64,000 nt of DNA, taken from the human T2T-CHM13v2.0 reference genome, Homo sapiens. How positions within the stretch are numbered: the first letter of the stretch is position 1; the number at the start of each line of letters is the position of its first letter. The notes beneath the pieces are model-generated. The model was not told the origin of the DNA. It searched no databases and saw nothing but the letters and a program-made list of their open reading frames with translations. Where the stretch lies: assembly GCF_009914755.1 (NCBI RefSeq), contig NC_060932.1. One strand, written 5' to 3'. The position numbers and the translations under genes are program-made. Shown piece after piece: positions 6,760-50,290 of the stretch.

Positions 6760-15720
<8,961 letters not shown>

Positions 15721-43187: not shown

Positions 43188-44148
<961 letters not shown>

Positions 44149-44169
44149 CACCGCCTCCTGCACCCTCTA

Positions 44170-44201
44170 CTTATACCCCGCGCCGCACTCGCCCCGCCCC
44201 C
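44170..44201 (-). promoter_or_regulatory. TATA-like box (TATAAG, 44170-44175) with adjacent GC box
   Basis: cttata on + strand ~27-30 nt upstream of the TOP start; GGGGCGGGG just upstream. Confidence 0.75.
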
Positions 44202-45927
44202 GCGCGTCTGACGCCAGGGCCCCTACGCGAGCGTCAGCGCCGGAGTAGGAGGAGACGCGGAGGCCAGGGGGAGGAGGGAAGAGAAAACAGGAGGAAAGAG
44301 CAGAGAGGAAGGGAGAGGTGGCGGCGGTGGAGGCTGCGGTGTGGGGGTGGGGCTCGGGCGAAGGGGCGGGGCTTTTGCGCAGGCGCCGCGGCCGGGGAAG
44401 CGGAGCCCGCGCTGCGTCGCGTCCGTGGGGGTGGGGAGGACGGCTCGCGGGCGGTCCTCGGGGGTGTTGGCTGAGGCGTCCCCGCCTTCCGCCCCGCCCG
44501 CCCCTGCCTCCACCAGGAGGAGCGTTAACCCGTCACCGCGGCGGTGGGCGGTGCAAAGGGCTTCCGGGTTCCTCCGCGCTAACCACCCCCCACGTGCGCG
44601 GCCGCCTGTGGCCTCTTCCCGCTGCGGCCGGCCCGGCTCCTCTAGCCCCAGCTCCGGGGGACGCCGGGCACGGGTGAGCGGGCGTGGTCCCCTCCGGGCC
44701 CGGTTTCCGAAACGTGCGTAGATGGAGCCAGCGTGGCCCCCTGCTCTCTCCTACCCGGACCGCACTACGAGTCCCAGCCGGCACCGCCGCCACGCGCGTC
44801 GGCCGCAGAAGCGGTGCCTGCTGGGAGCTGGAGTCCCCAACGGCCGCGGCGCTCGCTGACACCAACTGGCTGCGCGGGTCCTGGCCGCCCGCTCCGGGAC
44901 CCCCCAACCGTCCTGCGCGCTGGACCCCGGCACCGCTGGAGCTCCCGGCGCGGGGTTGGGGGGCAGGGAGAGAGAGGGGAGGGCCCCTCGGGTTCCTCGT
45001 CCTCTTCTTTTCCAGCCCGACCCTCCTCCGTGTCTTCACTGGACGTTGTCGTTGGTCAAAGTGGCTTTAATTTGGGATAGCTGTGTTGGGGGTCTTTGGT
45101 CACTTCTTACCTTAAGGTGCTAGGCTGGAATCATTGATTTGTGCTGCTTCTGCCAGACATTTCTTGGCGATAGAAACCAGGAGTGGAGAAAAGTGAATGT
45201 TTTTCCTGAAAGTACGGGTTTGTCACAATCACTACTATATGGCACCACAGCCCTGCAACCAGACAAAATTAGGAATAGTCTAAAACAACGTCCTTATAAA
45301 TAACTAAAACAATTCTGCACATTAGTAGTGGGTTTTAATAGGAATGCTAAATTTAACGAATTGATAGTAATAAAAACCGGCTCTAGGAATGACATTAAAT
45401 CAACATACAAATTCCACTCGAAAGTAGTAAAGTGCTTTTACAGTTTTTAAAGCACTCGCGTAAACATACTATCATTTGTTCCTGAGAGCAATCTGGTGTG
45501 GGAGGTGGAGCAAGTAGTAATAATTTTACTTTACTGTTACAGGAACAGTCTCAAAGAAGTTAAATGATTGCCCAATTTATTCCTTAATTCAATAAACTTT
45601 AATGGATGTCAACTGTATTGCTAGGTGTGGAATTAAGTACTTTATATCTTGTCTCATTTAATTAGAATTTAAACCAGTGGAATCCCACATAAATACTATT
45701 TTGCTCCTATTAAAAAGAGGATAAAATGTGACCGGGCGCGGTGGCTCACTCCTGTAATTCCAGCACTTTGGGAGGCTGACGCACGCTGATCACTTGAGGT
45801 CAGGAGTTCGAGACCAGCCTGGCCAACATGGTGAAACCCCGTCTCTACTAAAAATACAAAAAGTAGCCAGGCGCGGTGGCTCACGCCTGTAATCCCAGCA
45901 CTTTGAGAAGCCAAGGGGGGCAGATCA

Positions 45928-46161
<234 letters not shown>

Positions 46162-47256
46162 TTAGGCTTCCAGGGCAGCTTGACAGGCAGTGATGCCCTG
46201 GATGGTAAATGGAAGCATTCTCATCACTAGAAAAGTATATTAGTGCTTTGTAGGTGAATACATAGTTTGGGAAGGGAGCCAGTCATCAGGACGTCTATGC
46301 AGCTGTGGCTCTTGCACTTAGTAGATGTCATTGTCATATTTTATGGAGGTACAGTTGAGTATGTGCAAGGGAAAGTAGAAGCAAAGTCCATACCTGAGGA
46401 CAAGGAGCTGCTATTTAATAGAATAGGAGAGAGAGTCAGAGCCCAGGAGGAAACAGGAGTGGGATCTGGAACTGAAACCAAGAACCTGTTCCCTTGATCC
46501 ATCAATCACCTCTTTTTATTTCCAGCCAGCTGCTTTCGCTCAGATCAGAAACTGGTCAATTCAGATCAAAAAGAAAACAAACCAATCTTCTCTTAATGAC
46601 ATATTCCTCTCTCATTCACTTTTTTTTCATAGCCAAGCTTTTCATTTCTGCTTTCTCTCTCCTTAGTTCCTCAACACTACCGTATGACTTCCAGCTGCAC
46701 TCAAATTGCCCCATCAACAGTTGCCAATGATCCCTGTTCTATTTGACAAATCCAATGGACTTTCTTCAGGTCCATTTTACTGGACATCTGCAGAGTTTGA
46801 CACTGTTTTCCTCCCTCTCTTTTGTCACACACTCTCTTGGCGTCTGGGCTACACTTTCCTGGTTCTGCCTCTCAGATTCTTCCTCCTCTCTGCCAGTAAC
46901 TTATCATTCCCTGACCACCAGGTAGGATTGGGCACCCTTCCTTTGGTTTTTCCCCTGCCCCCCGCCAACCCTGCCACTACATTTACTACGTTATATCAAA
47001 ATAGTGTGTTTATGAGCGATCTCCCAAAATAAGTTGTAAGCGCCAAAAGAAGGCTTATGTCATGTTTATCTGCATCCCAACCATCTACCGTGAAGCCTGG
47101 CACACTGAGGGTGTATTTTTTCTTTTTAAACCTAACTTCAGGGAGAGGGCCAGCTAGGCCTTGTAGACTGACCATATAGGATGAGGGTTAGTTGGGAGGT
47201 CTCAACCTGATGGTCACATGGGCACCTAGGGCCGTGTTCACCTCCAGACTGCTTGG

Positions 47257-47504
47257 CCTGCTGCAGCATGTTACCTCTCAGCTCCACAAGCTGTTTCGGG
47301 GAGCGCTTCCTGACATGCTGGTTGGGCTCTCATTTCTAGTGCTGGAAGTAGTGGACTTTTAGTACCCCAAATCAGGCAAGCAGGGACAAGCAAGGACTCC
47401 TGGACAACAGGAGTTTCTGGACCTCCAAAGCTGAGGACGCTGTATGGTGGTAATCCCACTAATGTTCTGAGACCCCTTTTTGATGTTAGCAGTCTGATTG
47501 CTTG
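47257..47504 (+). repeat. long non-Alu inverted repeat, arm 1
   Basis: reverse complement of 48362-48616, e.g. TTCTGGACCTCCAAAGCTGAGGACGCTGTATGG vs CCATACAGCGTCCTCAGCTTTGGAGGTCCAGAA. Confidence 0.97.
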
Positions 47505-48361
47505 TGATAGAGGTAATTAAGGCTACGAATAAAAGGCAGAAGATGAAATATTTGTTGATTCCTTTTGCCTTTTTGATTCACTACTCTCATTTTTCTCTCC
47601 TATCATTTTTTTTTGTCTTAAAAAATGTGCTGTCTATGTTTATCTGGCTTGCCTGTGTTTATCTAATTTTAGATTGCAAGCTGTGGGACAGAATAATGTC
47701 TTTATATGTGCAGCATCTCACTGTGGGTGCCTAAGAATATCTAATGACATTAAAGTCATTCAATTAACCTGTTTTTATTTAATGAGTAAACTGTAAAGTT
47801 CTCCAGAGAGCTTATTCACTTGAACTTCACTAGCAATTTATAAGTAATTTTCAGGTTATATCCAGGATACATTCAGAATATATCCAGGATAATTTATAGT
47901 ATCTTGTGTAATGTATGTAAGATAACCTGGCCTTTTAAGATCTTTAGGTAATATAGAGAGATTTATTTGAAATGGATAATAAGTGTATTCGTTGAGAACA
48001 GATCCCTCTCAATTGAAGGGGTATACTTTCTGTAGATCCTTGAAATAGAAAAAATATTATATGACGTCTGTGATAAAATCAAAACTATGCAATGTTTCAG
48101 AAGATGAGCTTCCCACTTAATTGGTTTGCCAGGTTGGTGAGGAACATAACACCTACTCAGATTTGCAAATTGTCATGCCCATGATCAGAGGAATTCCTAT
48201 AATGAGACTCACTTAGAGTTTATGTTTTCTTCCATACGCATTGCATATTTTTCTCATACCAACCAAGAATGAAGAAAGGAATTTATATGAGTTTGAAATG
48301 GGGTCCTGTTTCTAGATTGTGTGTCAGATGTTGTAAGCTGACATTAGTTCTGAGAAAATGG

Positions 48362-48616
48362 CGAGCAATCAGACTGCTAACATCAAAGAGGGGATCTCAG
48401 AACATTAGTAGGATCACTGCCATACAGCGTCCTCAGCTTTGGAGGTCCAGAACCTCCTGTTGTCCAGAAGTCCTTGGTTGTCCCTGCTTGCCTGACTTTG
48501 GGTACCAAAAGTCCGCTACTTCCAAGCTCAGCACTAGAAATGAGAACCCAGCCAGCGTGTCAGGAAACGCTCCCTGAAAGAGCTCCTGGAGTTTAGAGCT
48601 AACATGCTGTGGCAGG
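48362..48616 (-). repeat. long non-Alu inverted repeat, arm 2
   Basis: hand alignment to arm 1: about 26 substitutions and two indels (6 nt, 1 nt) over ~250 nt. Confidence 0.97.
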
Positions 48617-48831
48617 ATCAAGGGTCATAAGGTCAAGGGTCATAAACACAGACTCAGAAACACAGAAACAATAATGGGAAAAAAATGTAGTTAGTGATTT
48701 TGTTGTAGAAGACAATAAGAGAAATCTCAAAATACTAAGGTTTGTTACAAGGTGCTTTTCTAATGGCATAGCCATCTATGTTAAACCAGTGTAGTTGTTA
48801 TAATGATTGTTCAATATAACAGGGATACTAC

Positions 48832-49504
<673 letters not shown>

Positions 49505-49861
49505 TATATGTAAATTTTAATAGCATAATGTACAGCGCTACCACTTATCGAATACCTCTTATCTCTCTCTATTACCACACATCAATTGATTTGGTAGATA
49601 CCAAGTTCAAATGTGTGACAGAAGTATTAAGCAGAGACATACACAGGAGGCTGGGGAGGGGCAAAAATAAAAGAGACATACACATGCAGACACATGAAAG
49701 AGATACAACTGTTACTGTCCTAAACTAATTTAGAGAACAGAAAAATGCAATGACCCCATTGAGACAATATTAAATATTAGATGCATAACAAAAAAACTCC
49801 CAAGAGGGGTCACAGTGAGAATATTCTTGCAATGGGTCATATTCTAGGACCACTGTTCTTA

Positions 49862-50290
<429 letters not shown>

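What the first reader, a model, noticed from the sequence alone, without database searches (positions are those of the whole stretch)
47257..48616. ~250-bp unique-sequence inverted repeat 3-4.5 kb upstream of PABPC1: candidate long-hairpin (dsRNA) locus
Seen: 47257-47504 and 48362-48616 are reverse complements, ~89% identical by hand alignment, with an 857-nt spacer. The longest perfect duplex is 33 bp (47415-47447). The arms are not Alu, L1, MIR or any repeat I recognise, there is no TSD at the outer ends, and ~250 bp is much longer than the TIRs of the common human Tigger, hAT and mariner fossils. Of about 26 substitutions, ~11 would be G-U wobbles in a plus-strand RNA, ~8 A-C mismatches and ~7 transversions, so the strand bias is weak. 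Known: duplexes of this length are substrates for ADAR (A-C mismatches are favoured editing sites), Dicer (endo-siRNA) and PKR/MDA5. Inference: an endogenous hairpin-RNA gene next to a translation-control gene, or a local inverted duplication whose arms are homogenised by gene conversion.
Basis: partly seen in the sequence, partly recalled or inferred. Interest (0 to 1): 0.82.

Follow-up and report, generated by a model that had tools for sequence, protein, structure and literature searches.

The report
Old local inverted duplication near PABPC1
A real 246-base inverted repeat of unique DNA lies 3 to 4.5 kb upstream of human PABPC1, but it looks like an old, one-off copying accident that has decayed neutrally, not like a hairpin-RNA gene.

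Summary
Arms 47257-47502 and 48364-48616 are reverse complements: 221 of 246 aligned columns are identical (89.8%), with two indels and an 861-nt spacer.

The DNA is unique. Each arm finds only itself and its partner in the 3.1-Gb T2T genome. Spacer and flanks find only themselves. Same-length pieces of masked repeats give 3537 and 5127 candidates. That excludes a pair of interspersed repeats. A transposon is unlikely: no target-site duplication, no other copy, no Pfam match.

Divergence looks neutral:
- K2P is 0.11.
- 7 of 14 ancestral CpG copies have decayed, against 18 of 232 other columns.
- Mismatch density is not significantly uneven, and the 33-bp perfect run is what chance gives.
- Neither RNA strand is favoured.

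There is no Rfam match, no RefSeq transcript in the hub table, and no second genomic copy to act as a target.

Best reading: one inverted duplication by template switching or break repair, roughly 25-55 Myr ago, with no evidence of function. I could not test transcription, editing, small RNAs or orthologues.

The parts
47257..47502 (.). Left arm of the inverted repeat (246 nt, 50.8% GC), continuous in base composition with the left flank
   Evidence: Alignments. The genome search finds only itself and the right arm. GC profile, GC count.
47503..48363 (.). Spacer, 861 nt, AT-rich (33.3% GC), single-copy. It holds poly(A) hexamers on both strands, many T runs and a small 11/22-nt tandem array at 47850-47891.
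   Evidence: The genome search finds only itself at E up to 10. Composition, hexamers and T runs, tandem array. No Pfam family reaches its cut-off in the two spacer frames scanned.
48364..48616 (.). Right arm of the inverted repeat (253 nt, 51.0% GC), a GC-richer block between the AT-rich spacer and an AT-rich right flank
   Evidence: Alignments. The genome search finds only itself and the left arm. GC profile.
47247..47255 (+). First copy of a 9-nt direct repeat with one mismatch. The second copy, at 47496-47504, spans the inner end of the left arm. It may be a microhomology or junction trace if the left arm is the derived copy, but it is weak.
   Evidence: An equally good repeat turns up for 112 of 1500 random 246-nt segments, so it is not significant.
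48618..48645 (+). A 13-nt unit present twice at a period of 15, directly abutting the outer end of the right arm, followed by a period-14 array at 48640-48666. This looks like slippage at or beside the junction.
   Evidence: Read from the sequence. Tandem Repeats Finder reports the period-14 array. Any link to the duplication event is inference.

Best explanation
This is a single, local inverted duplication of about 250 bp of unique intergenic DNA. One arm is the original sequence. The other is a reverse-complement copy laid down 861 bp away in one mutational event. The likeliest cause is a replication error in which the polymerase switched to the opposite strand and back, or microhomology-mediated repair of a break. 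From recalled primate substitution rates, the event dates to roughly 25-55 million years ago. Both copies have since drifted apart as neutral, germline-methylated DNA. If an RNA ran through both arms it would fold into a duplex of about 246 bp, but nothing in the sequence shows that such an RNA is made or selected for. Shown: the repeat, its uniqueness, and the neutral-looking substitution pattern. Inferred: the mechanism, the date, the lack of function, and which arm is the copy (unresolved).
For: (1) Uniqueness. The left arm gives 2 of 2 first-look candidates, itself and the right arm, and the right arm likewise. The spacer gives 1 of 1, the left flank 46300-47256 gives 1 of 1 and the right flank 48617-48832 gives 1 of 1, all at E up to 10 except, which ran at the default E 0.001. 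Controls with the same tool: a masked 847-nt repeat gives 18417 candidates, with scored matches at 66-92% identity, the long (about 440-630-nt) ones at 73-78%. Two 248-nt pieces of masked repeats give 5127 and 3537 candidates, with scored hits at 72-96%. A repeat family with even modest similarity would therefore have been seen. (2) No coding origin. A protein-level search with the 81-aa open frame over the left arm scored 16 candidates; only the frame itself and the right arm are significant, and the other 5 listed rows have E from 0.59 to 8.7. None of 6 translated frames reaches a Pfam cut-off. (3) Neutral decay. K2P is 0.1107 with 18 transitions to 7 transversions. Of 25 mismatches, 7 sit at inferred ancestral CpGs. 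Of 14 CpG copies, 7 have decayed, against 18 of 232 non-CpG columns. Two indels accompany the 25 substitutions. CpG observed/expected is 0.16-0.23 over the repeat, against 0.86-1.01 in the PABPC1 CpG island. (4) No sign of constraint or conversion. The change-point test on mismatch density gives p = 0.17, and the longest perfect run of 33 matches the chance mean of 34. G-U-compatible transitions are 10 on the plus strand and 8 on the minus strand, p = 0.81. Duplex energy is equal on both strands. (5) Template switching is a documented source of reverse-complement copies and hairpins in primate genomes (passages read in PMC7954356, and PMC10710096).
Against: No other species could be examined, so the predicted one-armed state in outgroups is untested. 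Date and direction rest on inference. The template-switch events described in the passages I read are short-range ('tens to hundreds of nucleotides' of vicinity; most inferred microinversions are under 15 nt). A 246-nt copy placed 861 nt away is at or beyond the long end of that class. Junction evidence is weak and the two clues on direction conflict. Base composition makes the right arm look like the inserted block. The only flanking direct repeat, 9 nt with one mismatch, brackets the left arm and is no better than 7.5% of random segments. A post hoc split gives 13 of 71 against 12 of 175 mismatches between the outer and inner parts of the arms (Fisher p = 0.010); it does not survive the permutation test, but a more recent partial conversion is not ruled out. 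Absence of function is argued from sequence and from a RefSeq table only. I could not look at RNA-seq, editing or small-RNA data.
Confidence: 0.72

Rival explanations
1. The duplication is older than the arm divergence suggests, and occasional gene conversion between the arms has kept them about 90% alike. This is the second half of the reader's inference.
For: The outer 71 nt carry 13 mismatches and the inner 175 nt carry 12 (post hoc Fisher p = 0.010). The innermost 30 nt are 97% complementary (I10). A gradient of this kind could be left by a conversion tract that started near the spacer.
Against: When the split point is searched for properly, 17% of random placements of the 25 mismatches give as strong a contrast. 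The longest perfect tract, 33 bp, is exactly what random placement gives. From recall, not tested here, that is well below the length of uninterrupted identity that mammalian homologous recombination usually needs. Both arms show independent CpG decay at the same ancestral sites, at 47262/3 and 47448/9. Those sites have therefore not been converted since.
Confidence: 0.1
2. It is a functional long-hairpin RNA locus. A Pol II transcript through both arms folds into a duplex of about 246 bp that ADAR edits, that Dicer cuts into endo-siRNAs, or that dsRNA sensors read.
For: The fold is very strong on either strand: -429.6 and -427.4 kcal/mol for the arms, z = -42. In the minimum-free-energy fold of the whole 1360 nt, 231 (plus) and 220 (minus) arm-to-arm pairs form. 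Its length, its 33-bp uninterrupted stretch and its roughly 90% pairing fall in the range that the dsRNAscan preprint associates with edited dsRNAs: median 31 uninterrupted bp, median 144 bp for edited non-repetitive ones (PMC11838218, section 7). The PABPC1 CpG-island promoter lies 2.3-3 kb away and could in principle send upstream antisense transcription this way.
Against: The hub's RefSeq table has no gene between 44145 and 61848. No Rfam match falls in 47257-48616: 0 of 13 matches at E up to 1 in 46500-49500 lie there. Canonical poly(A) hexamers lie between the arms on both strands (plus 47528 and 47749; minus 47774, 47778 and 47962). T4+ runs in the left arm and spacer rule out a Pol III hairpin transcript. 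The substitution pattern is what neutral methylated DNA gives, with no strand preference. No second copy exists anywhere in the genome or in the PABPC1 body, so there is no extended-complementarity target in trans. The same preprint reports that most predicted dsRNAs are unedited (section 6), and that most long, highly paired ones, 88% of which are intergenic, are unedited, likely for lack of transcription (section 10).
Confidence: 0.06
3. It is the fossil of a non-autonomous DNA transposon with about 250-bp terminal inverted repeats, present as a single surviving copy.
For: The architecture fits: two long terminal inverted repeats around a short non-coding core, 1360 bp in all. From recall, the arm divergence would place it near the last wave of DNA-transposon activity in primates.
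Against: There is no target-site duplication of any common length at the outer ends; the scan found at best 4-5-nt exact matches, and those lie partly inside the arms. No other copy or fragment exists in 3.1 Gb, although copies of a family active so recently should be about 90% identical to this one and the tool finds 72-83% copies of other repeats. No transposase remnant was found.
Confidence: 0.04
4. The arms are two independently inserted copies of a known interspersed repeat in opposite orientation.
For: This is by far the commonest source of inverted repeats in human DNA. At least three of the other 24 pairs shown among the window's 38 pairs of 120 nt or more are Alu-like where I looked, around 46000 and 48833-50000. 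I did not check them one by one.
Against: Each arm has exactly two matches in the genome, both at this locus, against thousands of candidates for same-length repeat controls. At 90%, this pair is more complementary than the other 24 pairs shown (76-86%).
Confidence: 0.01

Closest known systems
Template-switch mutations and small-scale MMBIR/FoSTeS inverted duplications in primate genomes (Loytynoja and Goldman 2017, PMC5453318, search listing only; Walker et al. 2021, PMC7954356, passages; Monttinen et al. 2023, PMC10710096, passages)
   Same: One event writes a reverse-complement copy of nearby unique sequence. This creates an initially perfect inverted repeat and a potential hairpin, which then picks up point mutations.
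   Different: The described events are mostly tens of nucleotides long and lie close to their template. Here the copy is 246 nt and sits 861 nt away. The ancestral state is not available, so the four switch points cannot be reconstructed.
Non-repetitive predicted dsRNAs of the human 'dsRNAome' (dsRNAscan, Andrews and Bass preprint, PMC11838218; sections 5, 6, 7, 9, 10 read)
   Same: It is an inverted repeat outside annotated repeats, within a 10-kb span, and far above their score threshold, so it belongs to the class that scan catalogues. By the hub's RefSeq table it is intergenic, like 88% of that preprint's long, highly paired dsRNAs, which the authors report as mostly unedited.
   Different: It is longer than their medians for non-repetitive dsRNAs (75 bp unedited, 144 bp edited). 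It is shorter and less well paired than their 'long, highly paired' class (over 300 bp and over 96% paired).
Hairpin endo-siRNA loci of mouse oocytes and fly hpRNA genes
   Same: They too are a long inverted duplication able to give one intramolecular dsRNA.
   Different: As I recall them, those loci are inverted copies of gene or pseudogene sequence and silence the parent gene in trans. Here no parent or target sequence exists elsewhere in the genome, and no expression evidence is at hand.
Inverted Alu pairs, the usual human dsRNA and ADAR substrate
   Same: Arm length (about 250-300 nt), spacing of a few hundred nt and identity of 76-90% are similar. Such pairs lie right next door at 48833-49500.
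   Different: The arms are unique sequence from one duplication, not two retrotransposon insertions.
Non-autonomous DNA transposons with long terminal inverted repeats
   Same: Long inverted termini around a short non-coding core.
   Different: No target-site duplication, no second copy and no transposase trace.

Membership tests
Pair of interspersed repeats (Alu, L1, MIR, LTR, DNA element) | Many dispersed copies of the arm sequence elsewhere in the genome | tested here: not met
   Each arm has 2 of 2 candidates, both at this locus. Same-length repeat controls give 5127 and 3537 candidates.
Long-TIR DNA transposon or MITE | Terminal inverted repeats at the very ends of the element | tested here: met
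   Arms 47257-47502 and 48364-48616 are 89.8% identical.
Long-TIR DNA transposon or MITE | Target-site duplication flanking the outer ends | tested here: not met
   The scan let boundaries move by 12 nt either way and tried lengths 4-12. It found only 4-5-nt exact matches that lie partly inside the arms.
Long-TIR DNA transposon or MITE | Other copies of the family, or a transposase remnant | tested here: not met
   Searches find no other copy. None of 6 frames gives a Pfam hit above its cut-off. No long open frame lies in the spacer.
Local inverted duplication by template switch or MMBIR | A reverse-complement copy of nearby single-copy sequence at the same locus | tested here: met
Local inverted duplication by template switch or MMBIR | Microhomology or small duplications at the junctions | tested here: inconclusive
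   A 9-nt direct repeat with one mismatch brackets the left arm, but 112 of 1500 random segments do as well. A 13-nt tandem duplication abuts the right arm, and its link to the event is unproven.
Local inverted duplication by template switch or MMBIR | An ancestral, outgroup state with one arm only | not testable with these tools
   No other vertebrate genome is held. The own-genome tool states that it 'has no relatives here'.
Hairpin RNA or endo-siRNA gene | A long intramolecular duplex is possible | tested here: met
   -429.6 kcal/mol, z = -42, and 231 arm-to-arm pairs in the full-length fold.
Hairpin RNA or endo-siRNA gene | A transcript spanning both arms, and small RNAs from the stem | not testable with these tools
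   No expression data are held. The hub's RefSeq table has no gene here. Poly(A) hexamers and T runs lie between the arms.
Hairpin RNA or endo-siRNA gene | A target gene with extended complementarity in trans | tested here: not met
   No other match in the genome (at E up to 10) or in the window at word size 7.
ADAR-edited dsRNA (editing-enriched region) | Clustered A-to-I sites on both arms | not testable with these tools
Known RNA family (Rfam), including miRNA precursors | A match to a curated covariance model | tested here: not met
   0 of 13 matches at E up to 1 fall inside 47257-48616. All 13 lie at 48833-49500 and all are below their gathering scores.
Large genomic palindromes or segmental inverted duplications | Arms of several kb or more with very high identity (criterion recalled) | tested here: not met
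   Arms are 246-253 nt at 89.8%. The homology does not extend into 60-nt flanks on either side.

The most novel reading that the evidence does not exclude
A single template-switch event in an early anthropoid created, out of unique DNA, a 246-bp hairpin module just upstream of the PABPC1 promoter. Read-through upstream antisense or enhancer transcription would make it a primate-specific, non-repeat dsRNA that ADAR edits or Dicer processes. That would be a long-hairpin counterpart of the de novo miRNAs that template switching is reported to create.
Probability: 0.05. Interest if true: 0.55.

Novelty: new member of a known kind. Interest (0 to 1): 0.2.

Why it matters
As it stands, it matters little. 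It is one more non-repetitive inverted repeat of the sort that genome-wide scans already catalogue, and it shows no sign of selection.

It has some value as a clean, datable example of a medium-sized (about 250 bp) inverted duplication of unique sequence. That size sits between the short template-switch events of tens of nucleotides and the kilobase-scale inverted duplications studied in disease.

If it were transcribed, it would be a rare non-Alu, non-LINE source of long dsRNA in human cells, beside a highly expressed gene. That would interest people who study ADAR, MDA5 and PKR self-tolerance. Public RNA and comparative data could settle this quickly.

Tried and rejected
- **Interspersed repeat or transposon origin.** Rejected on copy number (with controls), on the absence of a target-site duplication and on the absence of coding remnants.
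- **Coding-exon or pseudogene origin.** The left arm is open for 81 aa on the minus strand and the right arm for 71 aa. The protein-level genome search found only the two arms, with the other 5 rows at E of 0.59 or more, and Pfam found nothing. Rejected.
- **Known RNA family.** Rfam gave nothing in the repeat.
- **Similarity to PABPC1 or anything else in the window.** Sensitive blastn found none.
- **Gene-conversion signature.** The post hoc contrast (p = 0.010) did not survive a change-point permutation (p = 0.17).
- **Conserved perfect core.** The 33-bp run equals the chance expectation.
- **Strand bias as a sign of RNA-level selection.** G-U-compatible transitions are 10 against 8. With CpG sites excluded they are 3 against 8, in the opposite direction. 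Neither is significant, the first by a binomial test (p = 0.81), the second by my own estimate, not computed in a call.
- **Target-site-like 9-nt repeat around the left arm.** Not significant.
- **Profile search of the genome.** I built model R1 from the two arms, but the own-genome tool does not accept models. Copies more diverged than about 70% could therefore escape.
- **Supplementary tables of the dsRNAscan preprint.** Closed, so I cannot say whether the locus is already listed there.
- **Literature.** Nothing on an inverted repeat or an antisense or divergent transcript upstream of PABPC1: 9 unrelated papers and 0 papers. The phrase search also found none.
Full report
**What is there.** The window is T2T-CHM13 chr8:101,804,001-101,868,000. 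The finding corresponds to chr8:101,851,257-101,852,616.
- A gapped local alignment of the left region against the reverse complement of the right region gives arms 47257-47502 (246 nt) and 48364-48616 (253 nt). Of 246 aligned columns, 221 are identical (89.8%).
- There are 25 substitutions (18 transitions, 7 transversions) and two indels of 6 and 1 nt (same result with MAFFT).
- The spacer is 861 nt (47503-48363).
- The homology stops sharply: it does not extend into the 60-nt margins given to the aligner.
- The gap-free repeat finder sees the same structure in three pieces (I1, I4, I10).
- It is not chance. The arm-to-arm match has E = 3.7e-82 against 3.1 Gb. As RNA, the two arms cofold at -429.6 kcal/mol, against -166.7 +/- 6.2 for 60 dinucleotide shuffles, z = -42.

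**Is it a repeat?** No.
- The window's own whole genome can be searched. The left arm gives two first-look candidates, itself and the right arm. The right arm gives the mirror result.
- The spacer, 957 nt of left flank and 216 nt of right flank up to the next Alu each find only themselves, even at E up to 10.
- The tool warns that it skips very common words and scores only the best candidates, so I ran controls. A masked 847-nt stretch (13493-14339) gave 18417 candidates, with scored matches at 66-92% identity, the long (about 440-630-nt) ones at 73-78%. Two 248-nt pieces of other masked stretches, the same length as an arm, gave 5127 and 3537 candidates, with hits at 72-96%.
- A family whose copies resembled the arms even at 75% would therefore have shown up.
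- Two independent insertions that are still 90% alike would have to belong to a young family whose other members would be about 90% identical too. There are none.
- A profile search, which would reach further, is not accepted by the own-genome tool. Very old, very diverged relatives therefore cannot be excluded, but they could not explain two arms that are 90% identical.

**Is it a transposon, a pseudogene or an RNA gene?**
- No direct repeat of 4-12 nt (at most one mismatch allowed from 8 nt up) flanks the outer ends of the arms; with the boundaries free to slide by 12 nt, the scan lists only 4-5-nt exact matches that lie partly inside the arms.
- The spacer is only 861 nt, is 33% GC and has no long frame.
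- None of six translated frames reaches a Pfam cut-off.
- The arms happen to be open in one frame (81 aa on the left arm, 71 aa on the right). A protein-level search of the genome with the 81-aa frame scored 16 candidates. Only the frame itself and the right arm were significant; the other five rows listed had E between 0.59 and 8.7.
- Rfam, with permissive filters, gave 13 matches at E up to 1 in 46500-49500. None lies in 47257-48616. All lie in the Alu cluster at 48833-49500, and all are below their gathering scores.
- A sensitive blastn (word size 7) of arms and spacer against the whole window found no other similarity for the arms and only three chance-level scraps (E = 0.44) for the spacer. 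Nothing matched the PABPC1 gene body.

**How have the arms diverged?** The pattern is what unconstrained, germline-methylated DNA gives.
- Kimura distance is 0.1107.
- Seven ancestral CpGs can be inferred from the pair. Of their 14 copies, 7 have decayed to TG or CA. That accounts for 7 of the 25 mismatches, whereas only 18 of 232 non-CpG columns differ.
- At two sites (47262/3 and 47448/9) both arms lost the CpG independently.
- CpG observed/expected over the repeat is 0.16-0.23, against 0.86-1.01 in the PABPC1 CpG island at 43500-44999.
- Transitions that would read as G-U wobbles number 10 for a plus-strand RNA and 8 for a minus-strand RNA (binomial p = 0.81). With CpG sites removed, the count is 3 against 8 the other way.
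- The duplex energies of the two strands are -429.6 and -427.4 kcal/mol. No strand is favoured.
- Mismatches look denser in the outer 71 nt (13) than in the inner 175 nt (12), with post hoc Fisher p = 0.010. When the split point is searched for in random placements, 17% do as well.
- A perfect run of 33 or more occurs in 49% of random placements. There is therefore no significant trace of a conversion tract or of a protected core.
- Two indels beside 25 substitutions is also, from recall, an ordinary neutral ratio.

**Date (inference).** Half of 0.11 is about 0.055 substitutions per site per arm. With primate neutral rates as I recall them (about 1-2.2e-9 per site per year), this is roughly 25-55 million years, in the early anthropoid period. 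It is similar to what I recall for human-New World monkey divergence per lineage. I ran no call for these rates.

**Which arm is the copy?** This is unresolved.
- The GC profile shows the left arm (about 51% GC) continuing a 48-57% GC left flank. The right arm is a 51% GC block between a 28-42% GC spacer and a 30% GC right flank. That makes the right arm look like the inserted piece.
- Against that, the only flanking direct repeat brackets the left arm: 9 nt with one mismatch, at 47247-47255 and 47496-47504. This could be a return-switch microhomology. However, 112 of 1500 random 246-nt segments have one as good.
- A 13-nt unit present twice (48618-48645) and a period-14 array (48640-48666) abut the outer end of the right arm. 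These could be slippage scars of the same event or unrelated.
- An outgroup sequence would decide at once.

**Mechanism.** The best-supported reading is a single replication or repair accident that wrote a reverse-complement copy of nearby unique DNA.
- Template switching is documented in great-ape genomes as a source of inverted repeats and of complete hairpins in one step (passages of PMC7954356; PMC10710096). Microhomology-mediated break-induced replication has been proposed for related small rearrangements (PMC8755829, passages).
- The caveat is scale. The events in those papers are mostly tens of nucleotides, so this one (246 nt, 861 nt away) is a long example or belongs to the small end of the MMBIR/FoSTeS range.

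**Does it do anything?** Nothing in the sequence says so.
- The hub's RefSeq table lists no gene between PABPC1 (ending at 44145) and 61848, and no functional element beyond 45272.
- Any Pol II transcript would meet canonical poly(A) hexamers in the spacer before reaching the second arm: on the plus strand at 47528 and 47749, on the minus strand at 47962, 47778 and 47774. Hexamers are common in AT-rich DNA, so this is only a mild argument.
- Pol III would be stopped by T4+ runs in the left arm and spacer on the plus strand, and by a run in the right arm and others in the spacer on the minus strand.
- No second copy exists for siRNAs to act on.
- The dsRNAscan preprint (PMC11838218; sections 5, 6, 7, 9, 10 read) shows that such loci are a catalogued class. 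It predicts 5.1 million dsRNAs and about half a million non-repetitive ones, of which 4,597 are edited. Another section of the same text gives about 2 non-repetitive dsRNAs per Mb; the two figures do not agree and I quote both.
- In that preprint, non-repetitive dsRNAs have median lengths of 75 bp (unedited) and 144 bp (edited). Of its long, highly paired dsRNAs, 88% are intergenic and 74% are unedited, which the authors attribute to lack of transcription. This locus is longer than those medians but below their 'long, highly paired' class.
- I could not check their table.
- With an 861-nt spacer, cruciform extrusion or replication hairpins are not expected (recalled knowledge). The repeat is therefore unlikely to be a fragile site either.

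**Literature on the locus.** Full-text searches found nothing relevant. PABPC1 with 'inverted repeat', 'upstream' and 'hairpin' gave 9 papers, all unrelated by title and abstract. PABPC1-DT, PABPC1-AS1 and the antisense and upstream phrases gave 0 papers.

**Verdict.** The interpretation as a hairpin-RNA gene is not supported by anything testable here. The locus is a new member of a known kind and of low interest unless expression data say otherwise.

**Not done.** Cross-species alignment, a Dfam search, and RNA, editing, small-RNA and population data.

Noticed in passing
window 48618-48666: Two small tandem duplications sit directly outside the right arm: a 13-nt unit present twice at a period of 15 (48618-48645), then a period-14 array of 1.9 copies (48640-48666). 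They may be slippage scars at the duplication junction.
   Followed up: partly
window 47247-47255 and 47496-47504: A 9-nt direct repeat with one mismatch brackets the left arm, and its second copy spans the arm's inner boundary. 112 of 1500 random segments do as well, so it is only a weak hint that the left arm is the derived copy.
   Followed up: yes
window 47850-47891: A small tandem array in the spacer: period 11 with 3.6 copies, or period 22 with 1.9 copies.
   Followed up: no
window 48833-49500: A cluster of Alu-like elements in both orientations lies immediately downstream. It includes inverted pairs 154-409 nt apart, one 66-nt stretch being 95% complementary. Rfam gives only sub-threshold, apparently Alu-derived hits there (SRP, MIR8562, mir-3135, mir-1268). 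If this region is transcribed at all, these are the more usual dsRNA source.
   Followed up: partly
window 47274-47516 (-) and 48381-48596 (+): The same reading frame is open right across both arms (81 and 71 aa). It has no relative in the genome beyond the two arms and no Pfam match. I read it as chance in 51% GC sequence.
   Followed up: yes
window 43500-44999: A CpG island (65-75% GC, CpG observed/expected 0.86-1.01) covers PABPC1 exon 1 and extends about 850 nt upstream. CpG observed/expected falls to 0.6 by 45000 and to 0.16-0.25 from 46500 to 48499, so the inverted repeat lies outside the promoter island.
   Followed up: partly
PMC11838218, sections 6 and 9: The dsRNAscan preprint gives 'around half a million' non-repetitive predicted dsRNAs in one section and 'around 2 per megabase' in another. 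These figures do not agree, so its density should be quoted with care.
   Followed up: no
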